A stretch of DNA of 34,288 nucleotides from the IMG/VR virus record IMGVR_UViG_2548876869_000012; one strand, given 5' to 3'. The notes beneath the pieces are model-generated. The model had not been told where the DNA came from. It searched no databases and was given only the letters and a program-made list of their open reading frames with translations. Below, piece by piece: positions 1 to 33,970 of the stretch (its first letter is position 1; every line of letters begins with the position of its first letter). This DNA comes from a virus (Duplodnaviria > Heunggongvirae > Uroviricota > Caudoviricetes). Made by a program: the position numbers and the translations under genes.

Positions 1-1362
1 ATGTTTAAACCGGAACTCCTTTCCCCGGCGGGAACGCTGAAAAATATGCGTTACGCTTTCGCTTATGGCGCAGATGCTGTTTATGCGGGCCAGCCGCGTT
101 ATTCCCTGCGTGTGCGCAACAACGAATTCAACCACGAAAATCTTCAGCTCGGCATCAATGAAGCCCACGCGCTGGGGAAAAAGTTTTATGTCGTGGTCAA
201 CATTGCACCGCACAACGCCAAGCTGAAAACCTTTATCCGTGACCTGAAACCGGTGGTGGAAATGGGGCCGGATGCGCTGATTATGTCCGATCCAGGGCTG
301 ATTATGCTGGTGCGTGAGCACTTCCCTGAAATGCCGATCCACCTTTCGGTGCAGGCTAACGCCGTGAACTGGGCGACGGTGAAATTCTGGCAGCAAATGG
401 GCCTGACCCGCGTGATCCTCTCTCGCGAGCTGTCGCTGGAAGAGATTGAAGAGATCCGCAATCAGGTGCCGGATATGGAGATCGAGATCTTCGTTCACGG
501 CGCGCTGTGCATGGCCTACTCCGGTCGCTGCCTGCTCTCTGGCTATATCAACAAGCGCGACCCGAACCAGGGCACCTGCACCAACGCCTGCCGCTGGGAG
601 TACAACGTCCAGGAAGGGAAAGAAGATGATGTTGGCAACATCGTACACAAGTACGAGCCGATTCCGGTGCAAAATGTTGAGCCGACGCTGGGTATCGGCG
701 CACCAACCGACAAAGTGTTTATGATCGAAGAGGCCCAGCGTCCGGGCGAGTATATGACCGCGTTTGAAGATGAGCACGGCACTTACATCATGAACTCGAA
801 AGATCTGCGCGCCATCGCCCATGTAGAACGCCTGACCAAAATGGGCGTGCATTCGCTGAAAATCGAAGGTCGTACCAAATCTTTCTACTATTGTGCACGC
901 ACCGCACAGGTTTACCGCAAAGCTATCGATGACGCCGCTGCGGGAAAACCGTTCGATACCAGCCTGCTGGAAACTCTGGAAGGTCTGGCGCATCGTGGCT
1001 ATACCGAAGGTTTCCTGCGTCGTCATACTCACGACGATTATCAGAACTACGAATACGGTTATTCAGTTTCTGACCGCCAGCAGTTTGTTGGTGAGTTTAC
1101 CGGTGAGCGCAAGGGGGACCTCGCGGCGGTAGCGGTGAAAAATAAATTCTCCGTTGGCGACAGCCTTGAGCTGATGACGCCGCAAGGCAACATTAATTTT
1201 ACCCTTGAGCACATGGAAAACGCCAAAGGCGAAGCTATGCCGATAGCACCAGGCGATGGTTATACTGTGTGGCTCCCGGTCCCGCAGGATCTTGAGCTCA
1301 ATTACGCGCTGCTGATGCGTAATTTCTCCGGGGAAACCACGCGTAATCCCCACGGTAAGTGA
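1..1362 (+). CDS. yegQ: U32-family peptidase YegQ (host gene, 453 aa, appears full length)
   Basis: ATG at position 1; translation MFKPELLSPAGTLKNMRYAFAYGADAVYAGQPRYSLRVRNNEF... matches my memory of enterobacterial YegQ; host-like GC-rich composition. Confidence 0.85.
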   Translation: MFKPELLSPAGTLKNMRYAFAYGADAVYAGQPRYSLRVRNNEFNHENLQLGINEAHALGKKFYVVVNIAPHNAKLKTFIRDLKPVVEMGPDALIMSDPGLIMLVREHFPEMPIHLSVQANAVNWATVKFWQQMGLTRVILSRELSLEEIEEIRNQVPDMEIEIFVHGALCMAYSGRCLLSGYINKRDPNQGTCTNACRWEYNVQEGKEDDVGNIVHKYEPIPVQNVEPTLGIGAPTDKVFMIEEAQRPGEYMTAFEDEHGTYIMNSKDLRAIAHVERLTKMGVHSLKIEGRTKSFYYCARTAQVYRKAIDDAAAGKPFDTSLLETLEGLAHRGYTEGFLRRHTHDDYQNYEYGYSVSDRQQFVGEFTGERKGDLAAVAVKNKFSVGDSLELMTPQGNINFTLEHMENAKGEAMPIAPGDGYTVWLPVPQDLELNYALLMRNFSGETTRNPHGK

Positions 1363-1393
1363 TTAATTTCGATTATTTTTCCCGGATGGAAAA

Positions 1394-1415
1394 TTCTTAG
1401 AAACCGATCACATAC
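1394..1415 (+). promoter_or_regulatory. Putative CRP site of the cyaR promoter (TTAGA-N6-TCACA, TCACA at 1408-1412); -10 TATCAT at 1434-1439
   Basis: Half-site TCACA is perfect and the other half is 3/5; site centre about 42 nt upstream of the inferred cyaR 5' end; cyaR is known to be CRP-activated. Confidence 0.35.
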
Positions 1416-1446
1416 AGCTGTATTTATTAAGGTTATCATCCGTTTC

Positions 1447-1533
1447 GCTGAAAAACATAACCCATAAAATGCTAGCTGTACCAGGAACCACCTCCTTAGC
1501 CTGTGTAATCTCCCTTACACGGGCTTATTTTTT
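1447..1533 (+). ncRNA. cyaR: CyaR (RyeE) Hfq-dependent small RNA
   Basis: Sequence GCTGAAAAACATAACCCATAAAATGCTAGCTGTACCAGGAACCACCTCCTTAGCCTGTGTAATCTCCCTTACACGGGCTTATTTTTT matches the E. coli CyaR sequence as I remember it, including the anti-SD loop CCACCTCCTTA and the terminator hairpin plus T-run; lies directly downstream of yegQ as in E. coli. Confidence 0.8.
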
Positions 1534-1534
1534 A
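1507..1534. repeat. attR core: 28-bp direct repeat AATCTCCCTTACACGGGCTTATTTTTTA at the ogr-proximal prophage junction, overlapping the cyaR 3' end
   Basis: Identical 28-mer recurs at 33786-33813 just beyond int; the two copies bracket a complete P2-like gene set. Confidence 0.8.
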
Positions 1535-1597
1535 CGCGTAATACAATGAAATAAAAGGATTTATTTCTGGTCACGTCCACACATTGACCACATCGAC

Positions 1598-1621
1598 AAA
1601 AAAGCCCCTCGACTGAGGGGC
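1598..1621 (-). terminator. Rho-independent terminator downstream of ogr
   Basis: GC-rich hairpin GCCCCTC-GACT-GAGGGGC (1604-1621) preceded on the plus strand by an A-run (1598-1603), i.e. a T-run after the hairpin on the minus strand. Confidence 0.5.
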
Positions 1622-1634
1622 TTCCTGTTTGTAA

Positions 1635-1853
1635 TTACATCCACATAATTTGCTGCCCTGACGGCAACGGGTGCGGTCTTACGGCGTGGACTTCTCCCGG
1701 CTTCACGATGTATCGCTGTACCGACTCATAAGTGATGAACGTGGCGCTGCAATTCACGTTCTGACACTGGTGATAACGCTCTTTTGTCGTGTCAGTGATA
1801 TAGCGGCTTGTACGCGCATGTGCGGCATGCTGGCATAAAGGACAATGAAACAT
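1635..1853 (-). CDS. ogr: Ogr, zinc-finger late-gene transcription activator (72 aa)
   Basis: Translation MFHCPLCQHAAHARTSRYITDTTKERYHQCQNVNCSATF... with Cys4 motif; ATG at 1851-1853 preceded by a purine-rich RBS; the track ORF extends to a TTG at 1916 but the 72-aa form matches P2 Ogr length. Confidence 0.9.
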   Translation of the reverse strand: MFHCPLCQHAAHARTSRYITDTTKERYHQCQNVNCSATFITYESVQRYIVKPGEVHAVRPHPLPSGQQIMWM

Positions 1854-1934
1854 CGCGAGCACCTCTTCCGGTTTTGTTGATGGTGCCATTTTAGTTAATT
1901 TATCCTTATAAAACAAACAGATAAAATAAAAACA

Positions 1935-3098
1935 TCACTCATCATCTTCTGTTTCGTACTCCACATCAGAAAGCCTGACCTCAAGCTCTAAGGACGTCGT
2001 GAAGCCGCTATTATTCAGAAAATGTGTCACCTTAGTGATTGTCCAGTCCTGCTCGTCTATGACGCGCTTAAAGCCTGACACTTTAACCGGTGTTTCCGTG
2101 TAAATATCAGCCCGACCGGTAGCCAGGCTGATGGAGAACTCCGCAACGCCCCGTTGCAGTTTATCCCACTTCGCCTGAGCGGCGCGCATGGCCTGCGCTT
2201 TCGTGGCATATACCGTGGTCAGGGCAAAAACATTGTCAGCCTCACCTGCCATGTATTCACCTTCGCGCGCTTCCGGTACTTTTGGCGCTTTCTTCTGCGT
2301 GACCGGTTTCGCTTTCGGGTGCTCCAGTGCGCGCAGGTGTTTCTCTTTCTTTTTGCGTTTCAGTTTTACCTTCTGCTTTTGCGGCTTCGGGTCTTTGGTG
2401 TGTAACCACTTTGCCGTTACGCCGGTGTAGGCTCCACGGTCAGCAATCGCAAAATGATGGCGGTCACCGTCGCTGCGGGTGATGGTGACCTGCGGGATTT
2501 TTTTACCGCTGGCCGTCACCCCCTGCCCCGCTTTGAGAAACAGCAGTTTTCCCATTTTTACCGACACCTCACCGCCGTTGCGTTCTGCAAGACGGGTCAG
2601 AAATTTCGCATCAGACTCCTGCGACTGGTCGATGTGCGGGATTTTAATTCCGGCCAGTGACGGAGCGACACTGGCTTCCAGCCTGTTACGGGAGGCTATC
2701 GCCTCAACAATCGCACCGAGCGTGGTGTCATGCCATGAGCCTTCACGGCGGGAATTGAGCGTCCCGCGAAAATCTGCACTCCGGGCGCGGATGGTGACCA
2801 CATCCGGTGCGCCCCGGTGTTCAACCTCATCAACGGTAAATTTCCCTTTGCATACCAGGGCAAAACCTTTCCAGCCGATATACACCGTCAGGACAGCGCC
2901 ACGAATCGGTAGTCCGACCTGCCCGTCGGCATCGTTCAGTTCAATATCAAGCTGGTCAGCCTCAAAGCCCCGGTTATCCGTCAGGGTCATGCTCATCAGA
3001 CGGTCGCTGATATTGCCGGTAATATCCCTGCTGTCGAGCATCAGCATGTAATCCGGCGTCAGCGTACTGCCTGCATCAAATGTCAGTGCATCCAGCAT
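1935..3098 (-). CDS. D: Tail protein D (late control D, 387 aa)
   Basis: Length and position after ogr match P2 gpD; start overlaps the U stop. Confidence 0.9.
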   Translation of the reverse strand: MLDALTFDAGSTLTPDYMLMLDSRDITGNISDRLMSMTLTDNRGFEADQLDIELNDADGQVGLPIRGAVLTVYIGWKGFALVCKGKFTVDEVEHRGAPDVVTIRARSADFRGTLNSRREGSWHDTTLGAIVEAIASRNRLEASVAPSLAGIKIPHIDQSQESDAKFLTRLAERNGGEVSVKMGKLLFLKAGQGVTASGKKIPQVTITRSDGDRHHFAIADRGAYTGVTAKWLHTKDPKPQKQKVKLKRKKKEKHLRALEHPKAKPVTQKKAPKVPEAREGEYMAGEADNVFALTTVYATKAQAMRAAQAKWDKLQRGVAEFSISLATGRADIYTETPVKVSGFKRVIDEQDWTITKVTHFLNNSGFTTSLELEVRLSDVEYETEDDE

Positions 3099-3577
3099 TA
3101 TCCCGCCCCCGTCATACCCGTGAATTTAGTCGCCATACTGCCAGCCTTACCGATGAGCGATTCCGCCTGTTTACCGATATCGCCATAAAGCGCGGCCAGT
3201 GATTCATCAACGCGGGTGAGCGACAGCGTAAAATCAATTTTCCGGGGTGTGCCGTCTGCAAAGAAAATACTCCCTGTTTCACTCACCTTGCTGATGACAT
3301 ACATGCCGTAAATCATGCCGGTGCCATCCAGCAACGGCCACGCCCGCCCCTCCTCTGCCATCAGCCTGAGCGTGGTCATCGTCAGCTTGCCGCCGGTCAG
3401 TTCGGGATAAAGCACACCGGCAAGCGTGATGTTTTCCTCACCCACACCGAGAAACTGAAAAGCGTCCCGTTTACCGATACGGGAATTTGACGGCCAGCGA
3501 TAATCTGATTCACGCTGCATGGTCTGGTGTGGCAGCGTCTGGCGCATAAAAACAAACATACCTAACGCGAGCATCAT
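3098..3577 (-). CDS. U: Tail protein U (159 aa)
   Basis: P2 synteny and length. Confidence 0.85.
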   Translation of the reverse strand: MMLALGMFVFMRQTLPHQTMQRESDYRWPSNSRIGKRDAFQFLGVGEENITLAGVLYPELTGGKLTMTTLRLMAEEGRAWPLLDGTGMIYGMYVISKVSETGSIFFADGTPRKIDFTLSLTRVDESLAALYGDIGKQAESLIGKAGSMATKFTGMTGAG

Positions 3578-3591
3578 TTTTCGTCACCTCC

Positions 3592-6039
3592 TTAACCGTC
3601 ATGCATCATGCTGGCACGGGCGCGCGCACGTTTATCCCGCTCGTATTTTTCGAGCGCATCCTGTAACTGGCGGTCGAGCTGTGTCCCCGGCGCAGTACCA
3701 CCCGTCAGGCTGATGTGATATTCGTTTTTACTCTGGTCTACATAAGAGCGGCCAGCCGGTGCCGTGACCGGCTGATAAGCCTGATAACCTGCATAAGAGC
3801 TGGTCGCCGGAATATAACCACCGCTGCCATACGTGGCGGCTTGAGTTCTGGCGGCGGTCTGGTCAAGTGTGTCTGACTCTTTGTTGATAACACCGAGTTT
3901 TTCCAGTACCCAGTCAATACCACTGCGCAGTTTGTTGAACGCATTAAGCGGCAGCATCAGCGCGTCAGCCAGTGCCTGCCCGAACATAACGCCCGTGTCA
4001 CGGCAACGGTTCAGGGTGTCCCGGGTGGCTTTGACCGGGGCAATCAGGTTTTTAAACCACTGCCACGCGGCCTGTAACTTTTCACCCAGCCAGTCAAACA
4101 CCGGTTTAAGTGGCGTGAACAGTTCCCCCACCGGCGCAAATGCCGCTTTCAGCCCTTCCACCACACCGCCAAAGAATGCGCTGACAGGCTCCCAGTATTT
4201 ACGGATAAGCAACGCCCCGGCGACAATGGCGGCCACCACGGCCACAACCGGCCAGCTAATCGCCCCGATGGCGGTTATAACAGCACTGCCAACCGTCGTG
4301 AAGATTGCCCCCATTGCGCCTGCTGCCGCGATGATGGCATTGATGCCGGTGATAACCGGCCAGGCTACGAGGCCAATGGCACCGATGACACCAGTCAGTG
4401 CCAGTGCACCACCGACAATGATGCCGATGGTTGACGCCAGTGATTTGTTTTTCTGGATCCAGCCGTCGAGTTTTAACACATACTTTGTGGCCGTCTGCGT
4501 GAGATTACGCAGTGCGCCTTCCTGCTGGTCAAACAGGTCAGTCCCCACCGCCTCATAAGCGGACTGAAACTCCTTAAAGTCACCGCCGAGGTTGTCCTGC
4601 ATGATATTTACCAGCTCTGCGGTCTTCCCGTCTGAGGCTTTAAACGCAGCGGTCAGTTTGTCCAGCTTTCCGGTTGAGGCGGCAGTCATCAGCACAGCGG
4701 CGGCTGAGCTGGCCTCCTCCCCGAAAATGGTTTTCATGTATTCAGCCTGCTGGGCAGTACCGAGCCGGTTTTTCTCAAAACTGGCCTGCATTTCTTTCAG
4801 AATGGTAAATATTGGCCGGGTGTTTCCCTTGCTGTCTGAGGTTTCCACTCCAAGCTCTTTGAGTGCATCCCATGCTTTTCCCGTCGGTGCCTGCAGGCGG
4901 CTTAACACGGCACGGCTTCCCGTCCCCGCCATTGAGCCTGTGATTTTTGCATCATGCAGCGCCCCGACCATTGCGGCGGTTTCTTCAATGCTGACACCGG
5001 CATTTTTTGCCACAGGTGCGGCATAGGTCAGCGCATCGCTCATGCCGTCAAAATCGGCGGCGGTTTTGTTCATCGTCATGGAGAGAACATCCCCGATATG
5101 AGCGACCTTATCGTTTGAAAGCTGAAAGGCGGATTTCATCCCCATCAGCAGGGCGGCGTTTTCTTCCATCGTGCGGCGGTTCGCCAGCGCCATATTCAGC
5201 GTGACCGGCGTTGCCGCCTGAATGGCATCAACATCCCCACCGGCTTTCGCAATGATAATCTGTGCACCGGCTGCATCATCTGCCGAGGCTGCGGTGTTGT
5301 CGCCGAGCTGGCGCGCCTGCTTGCGGAGTGCGGTCATTTCGGCGGAGTCTTTTGCCACTCCCAGCACAGCCTGCAATTCTGAGTTTTTCTGCGCAAACTC
5401 ATAACCGGGCATCAGCAGCTTAACTCCGGCCATCGTTCCCGCAGCAGCAATCCCCACACCGGCAGCGCCCACCGAGACCATATTTCCGGCCAGCTCCTTT
5501 CCGGCCTGATAACGCTGTTTGACTGCGTTAAGTTTTGCCTGTTGCGCACTGACACGCGCCAGCGCGTCGCGCTGACGGTTAAGCTGTGCGGTGGTTTCAC
5601 TGATACGGTTTTTCAGTCCCTGCTCATCATGTGCAAGATTGCGGGTATTAATTCCCACAGCGGCCAGTTCCCGCTGCTGGCGTTTAACGGAATCCGTCAG
5701 GCGGTTATATTTCGCCTGTAAGTCCTCCGCCGCACGCTTTGCGGATTCCAGCACTTTCGCCTGAGCACGGGTCGGACGTTCGGTGTTTTTAAACTGTGTG
5801 GCAAGGGCTTCTGCTTCCTGCCGAGCCTTTTCAAGTGCATGACCAGTCACGGCGAGCTGTGCACTGGTCTTGCGGAATCCCTCAATACGGGATGCGTGAC
5901 CGTTCAGCTCGCGCAGTGATTTTTGTGTTTCCCGGATATCCCCCGACAGCGACTTGCTCGCTGTGCGGATGGATTTAAACGGACGGGATGCCTGGTCAAC
6001 AGCCCTGAGCAATACCTGTAATTTTACATTGTTACTCAT
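3592..6039 (-). CDS. T: Tail tape-measure protein T (815 aa)
   Basis: Long Ala/Gly-rich protein with coiled-coil N-terminal region and a hydrophobic central segment; size and position match P2 gpT. Confidence 0.9.
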   Translation of the reverse strand: MSNNVKLQVLLRAVDQASRPFKSIRTASKSLSGDIRETQKSLRELNGHASRIEGFRKTSAQLAVTGHALEKARQEAEALATQFKNTERPTRAQAKVLESAKRAAEDLQAKYNRLTDSVKRQQRELAAVGINTRNLAHDEQGLKNRISETTAQLNRQRDALARVSAQQAKLNAVKQRYQAGKELAGNMVSVGAAGVGIAAAGTMAGVKLLMPGYEFAQKNSELQAVLGVAKDSAEMTALRKQARQLGDNTAASADDAAGAQIIIAKAGGDVDAIQAATPVTLNMALANRRTMEENAALLMGMKSAFQLSNDKVAHIGDVLSMTMNKTAADFDGMSDALTYAAPVAKNAGVSIEETAAMVGALHDAKITGSMAGTGSRAVLSRLQAPTGKAWDALKELGVETSDSKGNTRPIFTILKEMQASFEKNRLGTAQQAEYMKTIFGEEASSAAAVLMTAASTGKLDKLTAAFKASDGKTAELVNIMQDNLGGDFKEFQSAYEAVGTDLFDQQEGALRNLTQTATKYVLKLDGWIQKNKSLASTIGIIVGGALALTGVIGAIGLVAWPVITGINAIIAAAGAMGAIFTTVGSAVITAIGAISWPVVAVVAAIVAGALLIRKYWEPVSAFFGGVVEGLKAAFAPVGELFTPLKPVFDWLGEKLQAAWQWFKNLIAPVKATRDTLNRCRDTGVMFGQALADALMLPLNAFNKLRSGIDWVLEKLGVINKESDTLDQTAARTQAATYGSGGYIPATSSYAGYQAYQPVTAPAGRSYVDQSKNEYHISLTGGTAPGTQLDRQLQDALEKYERDKRARARASMMHDG

Positions 6040-6459
6040 TCGTGTTTCCGCTTCGCCGGAGCGCCTTTTCGCGCCATGTGATGAGTTCGGTCAGGCTCAT
6101 GGGATACAGTTCTGATGGCGGCCAGTGAAATATCACTGCCACATCCGCCATCAGGTCATCGACCGAGAGATTTTTCGGAAACGTCACTGCACCGAGTTCG
6201 GCGACAAAAAACCGACCACCTTACCGGCCAGCGCCACAAGGTCAGGCAGTTCCAGCGCGGCGACCTCCTGCTCGGTCAGCATCGGTGCCGTCATGCGCGG
6301 CAGCACTTTAATCAGTGCATCGACTTCGGAGTTTGCGACCGCAGCCAGACTGACACCGCGCAGCGTCCCGGCATTGGGTTTCATCAGCGTGACCTGTTCG
6401 ATAACCTGTTCACCACGTTTAACCGGATTATCCAGGGTAATGACGTTTTCTTTGTTCAT
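6032..6459 (-). CDS. E+E': E+E' frameshift-extended tail chaperone (142 aa via -1 programmed frameshift at 6205-6211)
   Basis: Hand translation of the -1 frame after the T-TTT-TTG heptamer runs open to a TAA at 6032-6034, giving exactly 142 aa as for P2 E+E' and overlapping the T start. Confidence 0.8.
6184..6459 (-). CDS. E: Tail assembly chaperone E (91 aa)
   Basis: P2 synteny and length; ends GFLSPNSVQ just after a TTTTTTG slippery site. Confidence 0.9.
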   Translation of the reverse strand: MNKENVITLDNPVKRGEQVIEQVTLMKPNAGTLRGVSLAAVANSEVDALIKVLPRMTAPMLTEQEVAALELPDLVALAGKVVGFLSPNSVQ

Positions 6460-6515
6460 GGTTTTCTCACTTCTGAATCGGGGTTAACCGGTCAGCCAGG
6501 CTGACCGGATGAAAA

Positions 6516-7034
6516 TCACAGGCCGATATTCCGGCGGTGTTGCTCCAGCCTGTCGACGCCGTTCACCTTCTCAATCATGTTGATGGTGTCGATTTCGACC
6601 AGCTCCTTACCGTCCATCGTCAGCCGGAAATAGGTGCAGACCACGGAGATTTTCGACTCGGTGTCTTCTCCCTGTTTACCCTCGCCGGTGTCGATTTCTT
6701 TCTGACGGCCACGCATGACCACCTCGACGGCCACCGTTTCGCCGGTATCGTCGCGCTGGTAAGAGCCTGCAAAACGAATCGGTACGGCATCCACACCGGT
6801 TGCGGCGTAAAGCTCCCAGATAACCGAATCCGGGAAGCCCCCGAGCGACCACTCCATTGACAGCGCATCGTCATCAAGGCCGAGGTCTACCGGTGCGCTG
6901 CCGTTCATCCCCGCACCGCGATAGTTTTCGAGCTTACGGGTCAGTTTTGGCAGCGTGACGGACTTTGCAACGCCCTGATAGCTGTAGCCGTTCAGAAAGA
7001 CGTTCATTAACTTGAGTTTGCGCGGCATTGCCAT
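6516..7034 (-). CDS. FII: Tail tube protein FII (172 aa)
   Basis: P2 synteny and length. Confidence 0.9.
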   Translation of the reverse strand: MAMPRKLKLMNVFLNGYSYQGVAKSVTLPKLTRKLENYRGAGMNGSAPVDLGLDDDALSMEWSLGGFPDSVIWELYAATGVDAVPIRFAGSYQRDDTGETVAVEVVMRGRQKEIDTGEGKQGEDTESKISVVCTYFRLTMDGKELVEIDTINMIEKVNGVDRLEQHRRNIGL

Positions 7035-7046
7035 CGGTCAGGCTCC

Positions 7047-8237
7047 TTAATTGCTGTTAACCGAGGTGACCAGATTTGCCAGGTATTTATCGGTAATACG
7101 CTGGCGCAGGGTCAGGTTTTCAAGAGGAGGCACCGGGGTATAGTCGTAGTCGATATACAGTTTTCCGGCCTTGAGGGTTTCCGCATCGTTGGATTCTTCG
7201 CTGAACCAGCAGGTCGCATCCACGATATAGCCGTTTGTTTTCAGCTCACGGAATTTGGCATTGATGCCGTCAACGATGTCGCGAATCAGCGTTGCGGTGA
7301 TGGGCTTGTCCACCGCCCACATGTGCGCCTCAGCCATCGTGTCGGCTAGCACCTGCGCGGTGCGGGTGTAGTTTTCAAAGAGGAACAGCGGGTCATCAGA
7401 GCAGGTACGGTTACCCCAGAAGCGGAAACCGTCACGGCGAATCAGCGTTGTGACACCTGACTCGTTCAGCAGGTCAGCATCGGTGCCGGACTCCTGCAAA
7501 TCCCAGAATACAGATGCGCTGATGCCGGTAACACCGTTCACCCCGACATTGGACAGCGTTTTATGCCAGCCCTGCTCCTGGTCGATTTTAGCGCGCAGGC
7601 CCAGTGCACGGGCAGTGGCATACGCGGTGGCGGTGGTACTGGTGACCGTATCCCATGCGAGGAAATCCGGCCAGATGACCATCAGCTCACGCTGGCTGAA
7701 ATTCTGGCGGTAAGCTTTCACCTCGGAAACGGTCTTACAGCCCCATGCGCTGATATACCCGAAAGCGCGCAGCTTCTGACAGACTGATGCCAGTGCAACA
7801 GCCACCTCTTTGGTGTCCAGTCCCGGCACGCCGAGAATACGCGGTTTAACACCGGTTACCGACTCCGCCGCCAGCAGGGCTTTCAGTCCGGTGTACTGAC
7901 CGTTTTCGTCGGTGGTGCCGATGATATTGGAAACGGTCTGCGCGAGTTTCGTTTCCTCGTCGTCGCCGGTGCCGTCTTCCACACGCACGACAACGGTGAC
8001 CGGTTTTGACTGGTCGGCGATGGCCTGCAACGATGCCGCCAGCGTGCCTTTTTTACCGGCCTTTGCAATTGCGCTCTGCACATTGGTAATCAGCACCGGT
8101 TTATTGAGGGGGAAGGTTTCCGCATCCGCATCGCTGGCCGTGCAGACCATGCCGACAATGGCAGTGGATACGGTGGAAATGACGCGGGTGCCGTCGTTAA
8201 TCTCCAGCACCTGCACGCCGTGATGATAGTCACTCAT
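7047..8237 (-). CDS. FI: Contractile tail sheath protein FI (396 aa)
   Basis: P2 synteny and length. Confidence 0.9.
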   Translation of the reverse strand: MSDYHHGVQVLEINDGTRVISTVSTAIVGMVCTASDADAETFPLNKPVLITNVQSAIAKAGKKGTLAASLQAIADQSKPVTVVVRVEDGTGDDEETKLAQTVSNIIGTTDENGQYTGLKALLAAESVTGVKPRILGVPGLDTKEVAVALASVCQKLRAFGYISAWGCKTVSEVKAYRQNFSQRELMVIWPDFLAWDTVTSTTATAYATARALGLRAKIDQEQGWHKTLSNVGVNGVTGISASVFWDLQESGTDADLLNESGVTTLIRRDGFRFWGNRTCSDDPLFLFENYTRTAQVLADTMAEAHMWAVDKPITATLIRDIVDGINAKFRELKTNGYIVDATCWFSEESNDAETLKAGKLYIDYDYTPVPPLENLTLRQRITDKYLANLVTSVNSN

Positions 8238-8330
8238 CCGTTTAACTCCGTGGTTAATGGGTGCAACTATTTTCTGTTGGGCAGTGCATGAGACGCTATT
8301 TGACCTGGCTGGTCAGTGGATGAAACAACA

Positions 8331-8359
8331 GATAAAGAAAATGCGGGCAATTCGCCCGC
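8331..8359 (-). terminator. Putative intrinsic terminator (minus strand) insulating the F operon promoter region from read-through
   Basis: Hairpin GCGGGC-AATTC-GCCCGC (8343-8359) followed on the minus strand by a T-rich tract (plus-strand GATAAAGAAAAT, 8331-8342). Confidence 0.4.
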
Positions 8360-8576
8360 ATGTCCTGATTTGTACACACTCATTTTCCGACTGACAGTTT
8401 ACATAGCCCAAACGCTATCAAATCTGACAGCCTGCTATGAGCGAAAAGCGTTAAATCTCACGATATCTGCTACCGGGAAAAATTTCGATTATCTTCGATG
8501 GGAACTTTGATAATGTAGTAAATGCCATTTTCAGCGATCACTTTTCAAGCGTGTGTAAATGATTAATGTTAAAAAA

Positions 8577-8606
8577 TTGACTTCACTGAAATAAGGTTGC
8601 TAGTAT
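8577..8606 (+). promoter_or_regulatory. Putative sigma70 promoter for the Z/fun-locus cargo operon (-35 TTGACT 8577-8582, 18-nt spacer, -10 TAGTAT 8601-8606)
   Basis: Sequence match by eye; followed by RBS AAGGA (8636-8640) and the ATG at 8648. Confidence 0.35.
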
Positions 8607-8647
8607 TTTTGGAGCAACCATTAATGTTTTTTATTTAAGGAATGTAA

Positions 8648-8929
8648 ATGACATACGCACTGATTGATAATTCAACTCTAACTGCAGTCCAAAGAATCGA
8701 GGGGAAAGTAAAAACAAGATCGAAGGACTCAGTAGATACAGACATAATAGCATTTGAGAACTATATACAGTCTATTTTGTTCTATGATCACGTTATCGCG
8801 GTTGATGATTATATTCCAGAGTACCGTGGGAGTAGGATTTCAAGTTTCAGAGAGATATTATTTCTTGATAAAGCACAATATGGGTTGGATGAAATTGAAA
8901 GTGAAGCAAAAAAATATCTGATGCATTGA
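8648..8929 (+). CDS. Hypothetical protein (93 aa), first ORF of the cargo module at the Z/fun locus
   Basis: ATG with RBS AAGGA; AT-rich; opposite strand to the flanking late operons; no motif I recognise. Confidence 0.55.
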   Translation: MTYALIDNSTLTAVQRIEGKVKTRSKDSVDTDIIAFENYIQSILFYDHVIAVDDYIPEYRGSRISSFREILFLDKAQYGLDEIESEAKKYLMH

Positions 8930-10065
8930 AACCTAAAATTCGTGGTGGAACATTTGTTAATGACGATTTTAAAAAACTAATTGAACTTCTTCAGACACAT
9001 ATCATATGTACATGGGACATTAGTTCAAGTGTTTATCATCTAACACTGAAGAACTTATCTGATGGAGGTAAGGAGTTTGAAAAATATGGTAACATTGCTG
9101 CTGCCATTTTTTCAGAACTGCGTGATGCTGCTGAGTCTGGTAATAGAACAAATGGCGATGTTGAACTTCTCGATCGATTTGGCAACCCTATTCGCAAGGG
9201 GTACAAAGTTCCCGGAGCAAAATGGGGGGATGGCACATCTGCTGGTGAAGCATCAGATGCAATCAAAGCATTCGTGGCTTCGCTTGTATGGCTGGCTAAT
9301 CGGGCAGTATTTTATTCTCTCACAGCTAAGTACCTTCAAGCAGATACTTTTTTATATCCATTACGTCAGGCGTATCAACAGACATATTTAAGCCAAAACT
9401 GTCAGTATGGTTTTGACTATGCTAAACATATTGTAGAAAACTTTTCCACTTCGTTAAGTCATGATCTCATTGATATTCATTCTGGTGGTAAAGCTGTAGC
9501 AACAGCAACTTCGCTTCCTTTATTTTCGGCATGGCTCGCAAAAGAAACTGGTGATCCAAGTTGTATTGTTGAAGCTGCTTATAACATAAGGGACAACAAC
9601 GAATTTGTAAGGGCCCGTGAGAAAATGCGAGAAATAAAGCGCTTGTTTGATGAAAATGAATTGCCTCAAGCTAATAAGTCAGTAAGAGCATTGCTTACTG
9701 AAGTATCGAAAGAATCAGATTATATTCGAACTAAGTATGGGCTCAAGACTAGACAAGGTGTACCTGTAACTAAGCTTGTACATGTATACAATACTGTTGC
9801 GGCTATTAATTCCCTTCCGAAACTACCGACCTTTAATTTTAAAGTTAAAGTTCCTGATTTCTTATATGATCTTAAAAAACCCAAGGGGTTTCGTGCTCTC
9901 TATCGAAATTTGACTAATGATCTTTCTACTGTGTGGTCGTTAGGAGAAGCTCGAGATATTCTTGGAAGTAAAGTTGTGATAGATAATCATGCAAGAATTT
10001 ACAGTCCGAAGCATGAAGAACCGCGTTTCAAAAACTCTCATTCCCCATATAAGAGCCCGATGTAG
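8926..10065 (+). CDS. Hypothetical protein (379 aa), second ORF of the cargo module; TTG start overlapping the upstream stop (TTGA), possibly the continuation of one frameshifted gene
   Basis: Long open frame in AT-rich DNA; no in-frame ATG near the 5' end; A7 run at 8908-8914 immediately upstream would join it to the 93-aa ORF by a -1 shift. Confidence 0.55.
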   Translation: MKPKIRGGTFVNDDFKKLIELLQTHIICTWDISSSVYHLTLKNLSDGGKEFEKYGNIAAAIFSELRDAAESGNRTNGDVELLDRFGNPIRKGYKVPGAKWGDGTSAGEASDAIKAFVASLVWLANRAVFYSLTAKYLQADTFLYPLRQAYQQTYLSQNCQYGFDYAKHIVENFSTSLSHDLIDIHSGGKAVATATSLPLFSAWLAKETGDPSCIVEAAYNIRDNNEFVRAREKMREIKRLFDENELPQANKSVRALLTEVSKESDYIRTKYGLKTRQGVPVTKLVHVYNTVAAINSLPKLPTFNFKVKVPDFLYDLKKPKGFRALYRNLTNDLSTVWSLGEARDILGSKVVIDNHARIYSPKHEEPRFKNSHSPYKSPM

Positions 10066-10179
10066 CTTAAGAAAAAGACACGCCCACCTTGTGCGTCTAC
10101 TTCTGGCACAGAGCGGACTCTCAGATTAGGCTTTACTCTGTGCCATAGATATGTAAGCTCACACCAGAGCTCATACAAC

Positions 10180-10707
10180 TTATTGCGGCATTTCCGGCCA
10201 TTCAGGATTTGCAGGATCCACACGACTGACCAGAACACTGTAGCGTTCCCATGCCTCCAGTCGACTGCGCTCCTCATCTGTTGCCATATTCAGCCTGACA
10301 GCGCGCTCCAGCGGCAAAATCACGGATTCAGCATCTGCAAGAAGTCTGGCTTTCCGATTTTCTGCCTGCTGCTGCAATTCCTCTGCCGTATAAATTCGTT
10401 TAATCACTGTACAGTCCTTAAACATCCAGTTCCCTGAAATGTCCGCCCGTCGGTTAGCAGTAATATCCGGCACTTCAACAACACTTAATCCATCCGGTCT
10501 GATAGCTGTCACATCCTTTTCCACATAGCGGATAATATTATCTTTGTCGTACGCTATTTTTATCGTGTCATCAGCAAAATACTTTTGTTCTTCGTACCAG
10601 TTCTTACCATCTTCTGAAAAAAACCAGACAACATCAAAGTCCTTTGTCAATTGATATTGTTCAACCGTTTTTGGATTACCTGCCGTTATATTTATCAAAT
10701 GCTGCAT
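10180..10707 (-). CDS. G: Tail fiber assembly protein G (175 aa)
   Basis: P2 synteny and length; immediately follows H. Confidence 0.85.
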
Positions 10708-10710
10708 AAA

Positions 10711-13029
10711 TTATACCTGCGCCACGTTATACCAAGTCCCGTTAATGTATTTCTGCACCGGTCTGTAATATACGCCACCAATGTTATCGGCAGAGTTTGA
10801 GCCGGTATCCTGAACAATAATGCCGGAATATACACACCCGGACGGTGCCTGATGTGTCCATGTCATACCATTGTTCGCAGGTTTGTATGTGGCAGCACCA
10901 CCAAGCCGGATATCCCGGACATAGCGTGAATCAAAATTACTATAGTTAGATGGTGATACCTGCCCGTTAACAGCAAAAGTGATGCTGTTATCTGTATTTC
11001 TCTGACTGTAAAAATGCCAGCCTGCATCATCACCTAATTCAGCCACCACCGGACGACTTGAGTTTCCCCACAAATTGAATGCGGCTTCCTTCGTGGATGT
11101 ATTACTGCTGCTGACCGTGAATTTTTTCCCGCTACCGGCACGTACTTTGGTACTTGAGGCAATATCACCAGTAACACTCAGGCCATGCCCCATTGATACA
11201 GCACCCGTGGCATCATTTATAATCAGTGGTCTTAAATTATTATAAGTGCCTAATCTGTCACCTGATTTAGTCAACATAAAATAAGTGCTGCTGCCATCAT
11301 TCCTGATAAAGAATCCATAATTGCCATAAGCAATGCGCAGACCATTAGCACTGCTTGATGTAATCTCACCTCTTGAACGGAGACCATAAGCGGAGCTGAG
11401 TGATAATTCTTCCTGAGCATCAGTATTACCAGTCGCCCAGCGAACTACCCCGCCCTGTACTGTTTCATGCCAGATAGTGTCTCCTTCTCCACCACGAAAC
11501 TTTCTGAGATATTTTTTGCCGCCTCTGGTGCCTGAACATAAGGCCGTAGACATATAGGCATTCTGGCTTCCGCCATCCTGATTAATCGTTCCGGTCATTG
11601 CGTCGCCCTGACGATTCCAGTCACGACGCCAGCCGGGGGAGTAGCCGTCCCCATGATTAATGTAAGTGAATTGCGCGCTGGTTGTACCGCCACCGCTTGA
11701 TGTTGTCGGCGTGGTCACTCGGATAGTGATTGCAGATTTAGTTCCCATGACCTCGACGACACAACCAGCCAGGTGGATATCACCACATCCGGTATCCGTA
11801 ATGATTTTGTTATTTGCATATGACCAGGAGCCTTTGCACATCCAGTACGGATGATTAAATGCACCACGGGAATCCAGCCATTCAATAAACTGAGCGGTTG
11901 TCCAGTTTCCGGCTTCAGTGCTCAAACCGCCGCTATAAGCACGACAGGCACCGATATTTTTCGTGAAGGTATCCTTTCCCGGAATATCCGCACCGTTCTG
12001 ATCTTTCTGAAGACGTTTTTCAGCATTGTCATAGGCAGACTTCACTGCTTTTGGCGTTGCCGCGAGGGTTTCAGAATCACTGTTGGTGGCGCTACTGAGC
12101 TGGACAAGCCCTTTTCGCGCTGTGGTGGCATCCTGTGCAGTGTATTTCCCGTTAGCAAGGTCATACGCTGTCTTAACCGCCTTTGGCGTTGCCGCAAGCG
12201 TTTCAGAATCGCTGTTGGTGACGCTACTTAGCTGGACAAGGCCTTTTCGCGCGGTGGTGGCGTCCTGTGCGGTATATTTCCCGTTAGCCAGGTCATATGC
12301 TGCTTTTACCGCTTTTGGTGTTGCAGCGAGCGTTTCAGACGTGCTGTTGGTGGCACTACTGAGCTGGACAAGACCTTTTCGCGCTGTGGTGGCATCCTGC
12401 GCAGTATATTTCCCGTTAGCAAGGTCATACGCGGCCTTTACCGCTTTCGGCGTTGCGGCCAGTGTTTCAGACGTGCTGTTGGTCGCACTGCTTAACTGAG
12501 TAAAACCTTTGGCGGTCAGCGAGGCGTCCGGGTGACGTCGTGACTGTTCGTGCTCTGCAATTTTGTCATCAACGTAATCCTGCGTCGCCATCACTGTTGT
12601 GGTGTCAATGGTCAGCTCCACTGAGGCCACACTGCTGACGATGATGACCATGCGACAGGTCTGCGAACGCCCTGAGCCTTCGGCGAGAGCTGGCTTATAA
12701 CTTTCGGCCATGTTCGCCACGGCAATTAATGTTCCCGCATCATCGTACAGGCCAAGCTCACGCATCCAGAAACCGCCCACCTCCGGCGGAATAACCAGCT
12801 CTGCGATAATATAATTACTGTTTCGTTTGTCCTGGCTGATTTTGTTCAGCGCATGTCGCCAGACTTCATGGATAAGTCCGGTCTGTCCGGCATCCGGGAC
12901 AGGCAATTTACCACCGCCATCCCCGACGGCCATCGTGGTAATGTTGACCTTCCGCCCTCCCGGTGCGGTTGCCGCTGCCAGCTTTGCTGCACCGGCAGTG
13001 GTGATAACGGTTCTGAATTTTGTGCTCAT
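10711..13029 (-). CDS. H: Tail fiber protein H (772 aa) with internal 44-aa tandem repeats
   Basis: P2 synteny; conserved N-terminus; about 100 aa longer than P2 gpH (669 aa) because of the repeats. Confidence 0.9.
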   Translation of the reverse strand: MSTKFRTVITTAGAAKLAAATAPGGRKVNITTMAVGDGGGKLPVPDAGQTGLIHEVWRHALNKISQDKRNSNYIIAELVIPPEVGGFWMRELGLYDDAGTLIAVANMAESYKPALAEGSGRSQTCRMVIIVSSVASVELTIDTTTVMATQDYVDDKIAEHEQSRRHPDASLTAKGFTQLSSATNSTSETLAATPKAVKAAYDLANGKYTAQDATTARKGLVQLSSATNSTSETLAATPKAVKAAYDLANGKYTAQDATTARKGLVQLSSVTNSDSETLAATPKAVKTAYDLANGKYTAQDATTARKGLVQLSSATNSDSETLAATPKAVKSAYDNAEKRLQKDQNGADIPGKDTFTKNIGACRAYSGGLSTEAGNWTTAQFIEWLDSRGAFNHPYWMCKGSWSYANNKIITDTGCGDIHLAGCVVEVMGTKSAITIRVTTPTTSSGGGTTSAQFTYINHGDGYSPGWRRDWNRQGDAMTGTINQDGGSQNAYMSTALCSGTRGGKKYLRKFRGGEGDTIWHETVQGGVVRWATGNTDAQEELSLSSAYGLRSRGEITSSSANGLRIAYGNYGFFIRNDGSSTYFMLTKSGDRLGTYNNLRPLIINDATGAVSMGHGLSVTGDIASSTKVRAGSGKKFTVSSSNTSTKEAAFNLWGNSSRPVVAELGDDAGWHFYSQRNTDNSITFAVNGQVSPSNYSNFDSRYVRDIRLGGAATYKPANNGMTWTHQAPSGCVYSGIIVQDTGSNSADNIGGVYYRPVQKYINGTWYNVAQV
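12027..12519. repeat. Tandem repeat inside H: about 3.7 copies of a 132-bp (44-aa) unit
   Basis: Unit start GTTTCAGA recurs at 12068, 12200, 12332 and 12464; protein unit TAQDATTARKGLVQLSSATNS(T/D)SETLAATPKAVKxAYDLANGKY. Confidence 0.85.
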
Positions 13030-25025: not shown

Positions 25026-25910
25026 TCAGGCGCAAGTTGGCATTGAGACCCCTTTCAGGGTATTAGGAATAATTATTTCAGGAGAAAAAATCATCACTTC
25101 CTCTCCAGATTTTTTGAGATGCGCTGTATATTGCAATGAATACTCAACTTGCGGAAATCCATTATAAATATCTTTAATTTCCTTAGCGTTATCATAAGAA
25201 ACAAGCCAATTTGGGAAATTAATTTCTGTGAGTTTCTTCATAACCAATACATGATCATCATGCTCATAAAAATTCCTGTAAAGCCCTTGTCCTTTAATAT
25301 AGTAAGGAGGATCCAAATACAAAAGAATTTTATTTTTATCCACCTTTCCCATATTATCCATAAAATTCAAGGCATCAAGAAAATCCAAAGCATCCAGATT
25401 AGTTACTACTATTCTTTGATTATAATTTGCTATCTTCTCAATTCTTGAAATTAAATCCGCCCTGTTAAAGCGAACATCCATTTTCCATTTTCCATTTTGT
25501 GATTTCCCGCCTATAACCCCCGCCTTGAGAATACCTGAACGATTTGTTCTATTTAAGAAAAACGCAGCAAAGCCAACCTCAAGCTTAGTAAACTCAGAAG
25601 GATTCGAAATAACATAGCGATGAAAAGACCATTCATCCATATCTATCTTTGCTCGGCTAATAAGTCGGCAAAGCTCATCAGTATCACTAACAACAGATGA
25701 CCAAAAAGAATAAACAGCAAAATCTGCATCATTTATATAGATTTTACGGACATACTCTTCCAATAATAATTCTAAAGCCACCCCTGCACCACCAGCGTAA
25801 GGTTCTGCATATGCTCCATCATTCAACGAGTTTTTTTCAATAACATCTTTTAAAAAGTAAGATAACTTACCTTTCCCGCCGGGGTATCTTAATGGAGTAT
25901 AAAATTTCAT
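25026..25910 (-). CDS. Dam-family DNA N6-adenine methyltransferase (294 aa)
   Basis: Motif I-like EPYAGGAGV near the N-terminus and catalytic DPPY (YLDPPYY); AT-rich cargo at the P2 tin/old position; ATG with GAGGG RBS. Confidence 0.8.
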   Translation of the reverse strand: MKFYTPLRYPGGKGKLSYFLKDVIEKNSLNDGAYAEPYAGGAGVALELLLEEYVRKIYINDADFAVYSFWSSVVSDTDELCRLISRAKIDMDEWSFHRYVISNPSEFTKLEVGFAAFFLNRTNRSGILKAGVIGGKSQNGKWKMDVRFNRADLISRIEKIANYNQRIVVTNLDALDFLDALNFMDNMGKVDKNKILLYLDPPYYIKGQGLYRNFYEHDDHVLVMKKLTEINFPNWLVSYDNAKEIKDIYNGFPQVEYSLQYTAHLKKSGEEVMIFSPEIIIPNTLKGVSMPTCA

Positions 25911-27482: not shown

Positions 27483-27841
27483 CATCAACATATCCTCTGT
27501 TGAATCTTTATGATAAAAATTAATTATTTTTATCATAAATGATAGCGTAAACATAGTCTTATGAACGACATCAGCCCTGAAGCTTCAAAACTATCATTTA
27601 CGTTTGCGAGGCACCATCTATCACATTGATTTATAATAAGTATCTTTATTTTCACTGCATTGCTCTCAAAAAATCACATAGATGGAAATTCCCCGTTGAC
27701 ACACTCCCAAGTGATGCAGATACATTTCAAGTGCTTCATACACATGATAACGGCTATCCCCCTAAATTCTATGCGTTTCTTTTCCCTCCAGCACAAGGTT
27801 GAAATATCTTGCGTGCAGCTTTACTTTGTGAATCTTTGTCA

Positions 27842-33706: not shown

Positions 33707-33785
33707 CGTTTAAGGGCTTTCAGTGGTAATTTATGCCGCTCAAACCCGCATTGTACCGTTGAAAGCCCCTACTGGTGACACCCTA

Positions 33786-33813
33786 AATCTCCCTTACACG
33801 GGCTTATTTTTTA
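33786..33813. repeat. attL core: second copy of the 28-bp repeat AATCTCCCTTACACGGGCTTATTTTTTA
   Basis: Perfect match to 1507-1534; lies 80 bp past the int stop. Confidence 0.8.
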
Positions 33814-33970
33814 TGCATAAGCCCTATCCCTGGTCACCGTCTTCCATTGACCACATCGATAGAATCTCCCTTCATAGCACGATGCCTTTCACGTAACGGC
33901 ATCGTGCTCGCACAGGTTCCGGCTAAGCACAACCAGAACGCGCATGTTTGACGCTTACCAAAAAATATTC

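What the first reader, a model, noticed from the sequence alone, without database searches (positions are those of the whole stretch)
8902..8929. A7 homopolymer at the junction of the two Z/fun-locus ORFs: one frameshifted or recoded gene?
The 379-aa ORF has no ATG start; its first sense codon is TTG at 8926, overlapping the upstream stop (TTGA). Seven adenines (8908-8914) lie 12 nt upstream in an A-AAA-AAA arrangement relative to the 93-aa frame, a classic -1 slippery heptamer. Hand translation shows a -1 shift, or one extra A, would fuse the first 89 codons to ...KKISDALKPKIRGG..., giving a single protein of about 472 aa. The locus may therefore be one gene interrupted by a homopolymer indel (mutation or sequencing error), a gene needing ribosomal or transcriptional slippage, or a true coupled pair.
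Basis: seen in the sequence. Interest (0 to 1): 0.55.

Follow-up and report, generated by a model that had tools for sequence, protein, structure and literature searches.

The report
One prophage gene broken by frameshift
The two adjacent reading frames are the halves of one 472-residue prophage cargo gene of unknown function, split by the loss of a single A from a run of eight; this is an ordinary frameshift allele, not programmed recoding.

Summary
A7 lies at 8908-8914, the 93-aa ORF ends at 8929, and the 379-aa ORF starts at TTG 8926 in the -1 frame. Adding one A, or a -1 slip, gives a 472-aa protein.

All seven complete E. coli genomes with this locus have A8 and one 1419-nt CDS (WP_000220361.1). 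Four of them are otherwise identical to the window across the CDS. So do three IMG/VR and two metagenome contigs.

The protein belongs to a family (PHROG 13435, no Pfam/PADLOC/NCBIfam hit) that is a single ORF of about 455-485 aa from Enterobacterales to Firmicutes. The A-run is absent in every other genus checked; the 90%-identical Lonsdalea gene reads GCAAAAAGAATC. No frameshift-stimulating structure or SD-like motif was found.

The A7 allele recurs in clean assemblies on at least six P2-like backbones. An A9 allele (91-aa product) also exists, so the tract is a mutational hot spot and A7 is probably real.

Because A7 forms a perfect A_AAA_AAA heptamer, an accidental -1 slip would rebuild the wild-type protein, so the allele may be leaky. 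The gene sits in the P2 Z/fun cargo slot and is an untested defence candidate. Interest is low.

The parts
8648..10065 (+). The whole interrupted gene. With one A restored it is a 1419-nt CDS for a 472-aa protein (WP_000220361.1; PHROG 13435).
   Evidence: The window plus one A has 0 nt differences from the CDS of L001, L004, L005 and L007. It is annotated as a single CDS in 7 RefSeq genomes. The PHROG hit has E = 9.6e-294 over 1-472 of a 472-position profile.
8908..8914 (+). The A7 tract, which is the site of the 1-nt deletion relative to the A8 of intact alleles. It also forms an A_AAA_AAA heptamer in the ORF1 frame.
   Evidence: sequence. (A8 in L001-L007). (A7 in L009-L018). (A8 in five more contigs).
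8648..8929 (+). 5' fragment (93-aa ORF). Codons 1-89 are authentic; the last four codons (YLMH) and the TGA stop are out of frame.
   Evidence: Residues 1-89 align with the highly conserved N-terminus of the family; 17 of these columns are invariant.
8905..8928 (+). The only stretch where both frames are open. The -1 frame opens after TGA 8902-8904 and the zero frame closes at TGA 8927-8929. Any joining event must occur here.
   Evidence: Three-frame translation.
8914..10065 (+). 3' fragment in the -1 frame, encoding family residues 90-472. The mechanical ORF starts at TTG 8926 (379 aa) and has no Shine-Dalgarno-like sequence upstream.
   Evidence: The alignment is collinear with full-length homologues.
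8577..8606 (+). Promoter-like site (TTGACT, 18 nt, TG-TAGTAT) about 40 nt upstream of the ATG, possibly the cargo gene's own promoter. This is a consensus match only.
   Evidence: The region holds 4 such sites against 5.5 expected from shuffles, so there is no statistical support.
8238..10179 (.). AT-rich cargo slot (38.6% G+C against 51.2% for the window) between the tail sheath gene FI and the tail fibre assembly gene G. This is the Z/fun hotspot of P2-like phages.
   Evidence: composition. (flanking genes; different cargo at this position in P2 and fiAA91-ss). bioRxiv 10.1101/2024.10.15.618418.

Best explanation
The 93-aa and 379-aa ORFs are the two pieces of one gene. The gene is a stand-alone cargo gene of 472 codons carried in the Z/fun slot of a P2-like prophage.

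In the E. coli/Shigella version of the gene, codons 88-89 (Lys-Lys) together with their neighbouring bases form an A8 run. Strand slippage during replication removed one A (A8 to A7). Translation from the ATG now terminates four codons later, and residues 90-472 lie in the -1 frame.

The break falls inside a predicted helix in the middle of the conserved N-terminal alpha/beta domain, so neither fragment is expected to work alone. The allele is a genuine, recurrent loss-of-function or reduced-function variant, not a designed recoding site.

Shown by tool results:
- the single-ORF ancestry of the gene;
- the exact 1-nt difference from A8 alleles;
- the lack of conservation of the run;
- the recurrence of A7.

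Inferred:
- that the mutation arose by replication slippage;
- that the fragments are inactive;
- that a minority of ribosomes or transcripts may slip on the A7 run and rebuild the exact wild-type 472-aa protein, which would make the allele leaky.
For: (1) All 7 complete E. coli genomes with the locus have A8 and one 1419-nt CDS. The window plus one A is identical in nucleotides to four of them.

(2) Five more public contigs all have A8. The exact 472-aa protein is recorded on at least 1000 contigs, against 14 for the 93-aa product.

(3) The family has 282 hits and 328 representatives at 50% identity. Full-length members are 455-485 aa, with the N-terminal 89 residues contiguous and highly conserved.

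(4) In the 31 loci from other genera that could be read in frame, the gene is one ORF and the longest A-run at the homologous site is 5 or fewer. Lonsdalea (90% identity) has GCA AAA AGA ATC.

(5) There is no stimulatory RNA structure downstream (z = 0.41), no Rfam element, and no AGGAGG-like motif upstream.

(6) The AF2 model places the break in helix 80-92 of an alpha/beta domain spanning about residues 1-133, with pLDDT 80-92.

(7) A7 occurs in otherwise indel-free assemblies on at least 6 different P2-like backbones, several with near-identical A8 counterparts. A 91-aa product ending ...EAKKNI, which is what A9 predicts, is on 11 contigs.

(8) The window shows no general homopolymer problem. 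Its first 13 kb differ from an A8 genome by 3 SNPs plus this indel. The only other run-length difference, T6/T7 at 33807, is a common natural allele.
Against: - The window is identical over 6.3 kb to only one record, a scaffold-level assembly (GCA_000258635.1). I could not inspect its reads or sequencing platform, so a miscall in this particular record is not excluded.
- One of the A7 assemblies (L015) is clearly error-ridden, with 12 single-base deletions in 6.3 kb.
- The sequencing platforms behind the Logan assemblies are unknown to me.
- The cargo cassette is identical in all carriers. The spread of A7 across backbones could therefore reflect recombination of one mutant cassette rather than repeated mutation.
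- Loss of function is inferred, not measured. C-AAA-AAA gave 25-60% -1 frameshifting in an E. coli overexpression vector without identified stimulators (PMC1851650). The A7 allele could therefore retain appreciable activity.
Confidence: 0.75

Rival explanations
1. Sequencing or assembly error. The strain really has A8, and the A7 in this record is a homopolymer miscall. The biology is then an intact 472-aa gene.
For: Homopolymer length is the classic miscall of pyrosequencing and nanopore data. The only record identical to the window is a scaffold-level assembly. L015, another A7 carrier, has 12 single-base deletions in 6.3 kb. P0004 shows that noisy variants of this gene exist in the database.
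Against: A7 is present in several assemblies that have no other indel against A8 relatives over 5-6 kb: L009, L010, L013/L014, L016 and L011. L013 comes from run ERR025734, whose platform I could not check. The window has no other unexplained homopolymer difference.
Confidence: 0.17
2. Phase variation. The A8 run acts as a contingency tract that reversibly switches a costly prophage cargo gene OFF (A7, A9) and ON (A8) within populations. This overlays the best explanation rather than excluding it.
For: Both contraction (A7, 14 contigs, at least 6 backbones) and expansion (A9-type 91-aa product, 11 contigs) are seen at the same tract, while the rest of the cassette is invariant. The gene sits in a defence hotspot, where costly genes are common.
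Against: The tract is not conserved. It exists only in the near-clonal E. coli/Shigella version and is broken in the 90%-identical Lonsdalea gene and in all other genera checked. Out-of-frame alleles are a small minority, about 25 contigs against at least 1000. From general knowledge, an A8 run in a mismatch-repair-proficient enterobacterium mutates far more slowly than classical contingency tracts. No within-sample mixture of lengths was examined.
Confidence: 0.1
3. Programmed recoding. The gene is meant to be read through a -1 ribosomal frameshift at A_AAA_AAA, or by transcriptional slippage, giving a set ratio of a 93-aa product and a 472-aa product.
For: A perfect X_XXY_YYZ heptamer in the right register lies inside the only joinable stretch. 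Lys-Lys slippery sites are efficient in E. coli (PMC1851650).
Against: All close relatives are in frame with A8. The site is not conserved in the family. There is no downstream structure, no upstream SD-like element and no Rfam element. Efficient transcriptional slippage in bacteria is reported for runs of 9 A or T (PMC5009743), not 7. Any slippage here is adventitious.
Confidence: 0.03
4. A true translationally coupled gene pair (TTGA overlap) encoding two separate functional proteins.
For: The stop and start overlap (TTGA) resembles coupled genes. RefSeq carries the two products as separate proteins, WP_244405264.1 and WP_244405266.1.
Against: No homologue has a conserved two-gene arrangement. 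Full-length family members are single ORFs. The split cuts a predicted helix inside one domain. The start is TTG with no SD. The one distant homologue that is also split (L077) breaks at a different place, at another A7 run, and all its nearest relatives are 465-480 aa.
Confidence: 0.02

Closest known systems
Homopolymer-indel pseudogenes and frameshift alleles in Shigella and E. coli prophages
   Same: The allele differs by a single base in a mononucleotide run and is otherwise identical to intact alleles. Both fragments are collinear with the intact protein. It is rare in the population, and carriers include Shigella sonnei.
   Different: Nothing essential differs. What is unusual is that the deletion creates a perfect slippery heptamer whose -1 product is exactly the wild-type protein, and that the same tract shows both the -1 (A7) and +1 (A9) variants.
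Adventitious -1 frameshifting at C-AAA-AAA in the Gateway attB1 site (Belfield et al. 2007, PMC1851650), and the 'savior indel plus low-level compensatory frameshifting' class in Atkins et al. 2016 (PMC5009743)
   Same: It has AAA-AAA in the zero frame preceded by a base that allows re-pairing, and no identified stimulator. The shift would restore a reading frame broken by a 1-nt deletion.
   Different: Those cases were measured, under strong overexpression. Here nothing is measured and expression is from a native prophage context. The efficiency could be anywhere from below 1% to tens of percent.
Programmed -1 frameshifting in dnaX (A_AAA_AAG) and phage tail assembly chaperones (lambda G/GT; the P2 E/E' pair, which is also in this window)
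   Same: A Lys-Lys slippery heptamer with the downstream ORF in the -1 frame.
   Different: Those sites, their stimulators and the two-product outcome are conserved across relatives. Here the relatives are in frame, the tract is lineage-specific and no stimulator is present.
Phase-variable defence genes with simple-sequence tracts, for example the mod genes of Type III restriction systems (my own knowledge, not tested here)
   Same: An in-ORF homopolymer in a gene at a defence hotspot, with both length-minus-one and length-plus-one alleles in the population.
   Different: The tract is short, not conserved, and off-alleles are rare. Reversible switching has not been shown.
Cargo of the P2 Z/fun and old/tin hotspots (Rousset et al. 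2022, PMC9122126; bioRxiv 10.1101/2024.10.15.618418; NAR 2026, PMC13586616)
   Same: It occupies the same slot between the tail sheath and tail fibre assembly genes. It is AT-rich, on the opposite strand to the tail genes, and a single stand-alone gene. In other bacteria it is found in defence islands and in a Vibrio cassette array.
   Different: It matches no known defence family (PADLOC, Pfam and NCBIfam all negative) and no phenotype is known. PMC13586616 reports that pseudogenes of recognisable defence genes are rare in P2 (about 2% of pseudogenes), whereas many pseudogenes resemble genes of unknown function, the category this one would fall in.

Membership tests
Programmed -1 ribosomal frameshift site | Slippery heptamer X_XXY_YYZ in the zero frame, inside the overlap of the two ORFs | tested here: met
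   A_AAA_AAA at 8908-8914 in the ORF1 frame. The overlap stretch is 8905-8928.
Programmed -1 ribosomal frameshift site | The two-ORF arrangement and the slippery site are conserved among homologues | tested here: not met
   A8 and a single ORF in 12/12 other near-identical loci from the complete-genome, IMG/VR and metagenome searches. A single ORF and an A-run of 5 or fewer at the site in the 31 loci from other genera that could be read in frame.
Programmed -1 ribosomal frameshift site | A stimulatory element: a downstream stem-loop or pseudoknot, or an upstream SD-like sequence | tested here: not met
   The 80 nt downstream fold at -7.8 kcal/mol, z = 0.41, and 126 of 200 shuffles fold as well. 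No AGGAGG-like motif lies within 20 nt upstream. No Rfam match.
Programmed -1 ribosomal frameshift site | Both the unshifted and the shifted product are made at a set ratio and are needed | not testable with these tools
   Needs western blot or mass spectrometry.
Programmed transcriptional slippage (for example Thermus dnaX, Shigella mxiE) | A run of about 9 or more A or T, or a shorter run with a stimulating context | tested here: not met
   The run is 7. Efficient slippage is reported for runs of 9 (PMC5009743).
Homopolymer frameshift allele or pseudogene of a single gene | Intact orthologues differ only by the length of the run | tested here: met
   The window plus one A has 0 nt differences from the CDS in L001, L004, L005 and L007.
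Homopolymer frameshift allele or pseudogene of a single gene | Both fragments are collinear with one continuous protein family | tested here: met
   Alignments A1 and A2, 35 sequences at 51-100% identity and 471-503 aa (28 of them exactly 472 or 473 aa); a profile search gave 328 representatives.
Homopolymer frameshift allele or pseudogene of a single gene | The allele is real in the organism, not a sequencing artefact | tested here: inconclusive
   Independent indel-free assemblies carry A7, and there is no other homopolymer anomaly in the window. The reads of the source record could not be examined.
Phase-variable contingency locus | Length variants of an in-ORF repeat tract, both plus and minus, in the population | tested here: met
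   A7 is confirmed at DNA level on 14 contigs. A9 is inferred from a 91-aa product ending ...KKNI on 11 contigs. A8 is on at least 1000 contigs.
Phase-variable contingency locus | The tract is maintained across related genes or lineages | tested here: not met
   It is absent in all other genera checked. The nearest relative has AAAAAGAA.
Phase-variable contingency locus | High-frequency reversible switching within a clone | not testable with these tools
   Needs a fluctuation assay or deep sequencing of the tract.
Anti-phage defence cargo of the P2 Z/fun hotspot | Located between the tail sheath (FI) and tail fibre assembly (G) genes, with foreign base composition | tested here: met
   G+C is 38.6% against 51.2%.
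Anti-phage defence cargo of the P2 Z/fun hotspot | Homology to a described defence protein | tested here: not met
   PADLOC 0 hits at E up to 1. Pfam 0. NCBIfam 0. PHROG 13435 has unknown function. No PDB sequence relative.
Anti-phage defence cargo of the P2 Z/fun hotspot | Confers resistance to phage infection | not testable with these tools
   Needs plaque assays with the cloned A8 and A7 alleles.
PIN-like nuclease (N-terminal domain) | A PIN fold with a conserved acidic quartet | tested here: inconclusive

The most novel reading that the evidence does not exclude
The 472-aa protein is a new single-gene anti-phage (abortive-infection-like) module that is costly to carry. Its lineage-specific A8 run then works as a de facto on/off/dimmer switch. 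A7 and A9 variants arise repeatedly and silence it. The A7 variant in particular stays partly on, because ribosomes slipping -1 on A_AAA_AAA remake the exact wild-type protein.
Probability: 0.1. Interest if true: 0.5.

Novelty: new member of a known kind. Interest (0 to 1): 0.2.

Why it matters
The main value is for annotation. The two 'hypothetical proteins' (WP_244405264.1, 93 aa; WP_244405266.1, 379 aa) are fragments of one gene and should be recorded as a frameshifted copy of WP_000220361.1.

There are two secondary points:
- The intact gene belongs to a compact, very widely transferred and entirely uncharacterised family. It occupies a known defence hotspot, a Pectobacterium defence island and a Vibrio cassette array, so it is a reasonable candidate for phage-challenge testing.
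- Repeated inactivation at the same tract hints that carrying the gene can be costly. It also gives a natural A7/A8 pair for measuring unprogrammed -1 frameshifting at A_AAA_AAA in a native context.

Tried and rejected
- Pfam, PADLOC and NCBIfam scans of the fused protein gave no hit at E up to 1. PHROGs gave only an unnamed family.
- A profile search of PDB sequences gave only chance coiled-coil matches.
- Foldseek against PDB and BFVD found nothing significant. The afdb50 library was not available.
- Megablast against the phage collection gave no match for the cargo gene.
- A literature search for WP_000220361 found nothing. Rousset et al. 2022 tested the gpA-portal hotspot, not this slot.
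I rebuilt it with P0007, which differs by 1 aa.
- I checked whether forms of about 370 aa among the distant representatives mean a natural short version. The one followed up (P0213) is a singleton whose relatives are all 465-480 aa, and it is itself split at another A7 run.
- I looked for a conserved partner gene in 31 loci and found none.
- Rfam gave no relevant element.

Full report
**Observation**

The sequence is as described. Positions 8908-8914 are seven A. The 93-aa ORF (ATG 8648 to TGA 8927-8929) reads ...GAA GCA AAA AAA TAT CTG ATG CAT TGA. The 379-aa ORF begins at TTG 8926 in the -1 frame and overlaps that stop as TTGA.

Three-frame translation shows that the -1 frame is closed by TGA at 8902-8904 and opens at 8905. 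The frames can therefore be joined only within 8905-8928, and the A-run lies inside that stretch. A -1 slip or one added A gives the same 472-aa product...ESEAKKISDALKPKIRGG....

The gene lies in a 1.9-kb AT-rich insert (38.6% G+C against 51.2% for the window). The insert sits between the tail sheath gene (7047-8237, -) and the tail fibre assembly gene (10180-10707, -) of a P2-like (Peduovirus) prophage. Other P2-like phages carry different cargo at the same position, and the literature describes this as the Z/fun hotspot (bioRxiv 10.1101/2024.10.15.618418).

**Close relatives**

Megablast of 8560-10100 against 5,426 complete E. coli genomes found the locus in seven. In every one the match is one base longer than the query. 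All seven have A8 and a single annotated 1419-nt CDS for a 472-aa hypothetical protein: WP_000220361.1 in six and WP_254202777.1 in one. After one A is added, the window has 0 nt differences from four of them over the CDS.

A gapped pattern that tolerates any run length found three IMG/VR contigs and two metagenome contigs, all with A8. The exact 472-aa sequence is on record from at least 1000 contigs.

**The family**

A word-indexed search gave 282 homologues. The best 120 are almost all 472-474 aa and cover 100% of the query. They come from Pantoea, Serratia, Pectobacterium, Acinetobacter, Halomonas, Vibrio, Psychrobacter, Desulfotalea, Citrifermentans and many metagenomes.

A profile search of 1.84 billion representatives gave 328 members. 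Full-length members are 455-485 aa and none carries an extra domain. In a 35-sequence alignment, 17 columns in the first 89 residues are invariant and the alignment runs straight through the break point. The residues around the break (EAKKISDAL) are in a variable segment.

At DNA level, in the 31 loci from other genera that could be read in frame, the gene is one ORF and the longest A-run at the homologous site is 5 or fewer. The 90%-identical Lonsdalea gene reads GCA AAA AGA ATC (Lys-Arg). The A8 of the E. coli/Shigella version is thus one G-to-A change away from an uninterrupted-by-G run. The tract is therefore a recent, lineage-specific accident, not a conserved signal.

**Tests for programmed recoding**

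- The 80 nt downstream of the run fold no better than shuffles (z = 0.41).
- There is no SD-like motif upstream and no Rfam match.
- Efficient transcriptional slippage in bacteria is reported for runs of nine (PMC5009743), not seven.

Together with the in-frame relatives, this rejects programmed frameshifting and a designed gene pair.

An AF2 model (pLDDT 68 overall, 80-92 over residues 1-110) puts the break inside helix 80-92 of an N-terminal alpha/beta domain spanning about residues 1-133. The split therefore cuts a domain rather than separating two.

**Mutation or sequencing error?**

The 93-aa product is on record from 14 contigs, and all ten loci fetched have A7. Over 6.3 kb the window is identical to one of them, GCA_000258635.1 scaffold JH648165.1, which is probably its source or a very close relative.

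The others sit on different P2-like backbones:
- L009 and L015, which share two SNPs;
- L010;
- L011 and L018, whose upstream haplotype is shared with the A8 locus L004;
- L013 and L014 (Shigella sonnei), whose backbone matches the A8 contigs L072 and L074;
- L016.

Except for L015, which has 12 single-base deletions and is plainly noisy, these loci have no other indel.

A 91-aa product ending ...EAKKNI, exactly what A9 predicts, is on 11 contigs. The window itself shows no general homopolymer trouble. Its first 13 kb differ from an A8 genome by three SNPs and this one indel. The only other run-length difference (T6 against T7 at 33807) is a common natural allele.

I conclude that A7 is a real and probably recurrent allele, with at least two slippage events at this tract (A7 and A9) and likely more. 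Two caveats apply. I could not see the reads behind the source record. And because the cassette is identical in all carriers, recombination of one mutant cassette could explain part of the spread.

**Consequence for expression (inferred)**

The deletion places the run in the register A_AAA_AAA, so a tandem -1 slip of the two Lys-tRNAs yields exactly the wild-type protein. C-AAA-AAA without identified stimulators gave 25-60% frameshifting in an E. coli overexpression vector, with transcriptional slippage excluded by RT-PCR (PMC1851650). The A7 allele may therefore be leaky rather than null. This would be adventitious 'compensatory' frameshifting in the sense of PMC5009743.

Independent initiation at TTG 8926 has no SD. 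It would give a protein lacking 89 residues that include 17 invariant positions.

**What the gene is**

Context points to a stand-alone mobile module often found among defence genes:
- the P2 Z/fun slot in this window;
- a Pectobacterium island containing HEPN_Toprim_N/RiboL-PSP, toxin-antitoxin genes and a CTD1/MComp1/SMC system;
- a Vibrio vulnificus array of short same-strand cassettes;
- a solitary insertion in Acinetobacter.

Among the two nearest ORFs on each side in 31 loci there is no conserved partner. Type I and IV restriction genes, mad2, PbeA, HamB and ParE each appear in one to three loci. My working hypothesis, unproven, is a single-gene anti-phage or abortive-infection function.

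**Verdict**

This is an ordinary, well-explained feature: one gene broken by a 1-nt homopolymer deletion.

The residual interest is modest. The allele is recurrent, it may be self-rescuing by accidental frameshifting, and the underlying family is an untested defence candidate.

Noticed in passing
window 25026-25910 (-) and 25980-27554 (-): The prophage's other cargo hotspot, between the portal and gpA genes (the old/tin position), holds an apparently intact PD-Lambda-5 system. PD-Lambda-5_A scores E = 5.9e-168 and PD-Lambda-5_B, a D12-class adenine methyltransferase, scores E = 1.4e-121. This region is not alignable with the A8 genome L008, which carries an ATP-dependent nuclease there.
   Followed up: partly
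L077 1235-2616 (GCA_024712465.1 contig JAMQYI011635573.1): A distant homologue (P0213) is also split into a 95-aa ORF and a 371-aa ORF. The break is at a different A7 run (GAAAAAAAG), about 13 codons upstream of the E. coli tract. All its nearest relatives are 465-480 aa. It is a second, independent homopolymer break in this AT-rich family, or a sequencing error.
   Followed up: partly
L033, L050, L058 (match regions 6001-7415, 6001-7415 and 6001-7412): The homologues in a Pantoea symbiont of the stink bug Euschistus servus and in two MAGs have match lengths that are not multiples of three and 10-12 in-frame stops downstream. They are frameshifted copies, broken somewhere other than the A-tract.
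   Followed up: no
window 10042-10065 (C-terminus of the gene); alignments A1 and A2: Nearly every full-length family member ends at the same motif, directly followed by the stop: H-S-x-(F/Y/W/I)-K-S-P-M. H465, K469, S470, P471 and M472 are invariant in 35 sequences. A related (K/Q/S)-x-P-M ending persists in nearly all of the 27-43% identity homologues that could be read through to their stop. A strictly conserved extreme C-terminus is unusual, and I have no explanation for it.
   Followed up: no
window 17321: There is a 12-nt in-frame deletion relative to L008, which has CAGTGCCAGCAT next to CAGCGCCAGCGA. It lies in the gene annotated in L008 as a 'DNZ54_00345 family protein', within the lysis region. 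It looks like a copy-number difference of an imperfect 12-nt repeat.
   Followed up: no
window 1-1362 and 33700-34288: The prophage sits between yegQ and yegR, the same site as in E. coli 89-3156 (L008). Window 1-13000 is almost identical to that genome (3 SNPs), while 13-34 kb is 1-5% divergent. The prophage is therefore a mosaic of backbones.
   Followed up: partly
L006 2122-2542 (E. coli OkiPb01685): In this A8 genome the neighbouring tail fibre assembly gene is annotated as frameshifted. It has a 10-nt deletion at the position equivalent to window 10473-10482.
   Followed up: no
window 8969-8974: A second A-run (A6, in codons for DDFKKL) lies 55 nt downstream of the A7 tract. One database variant (P0004) appears to have lost one A here as well as three A from the main tract. 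It probably comes from noisy reads.
   Followed up: no
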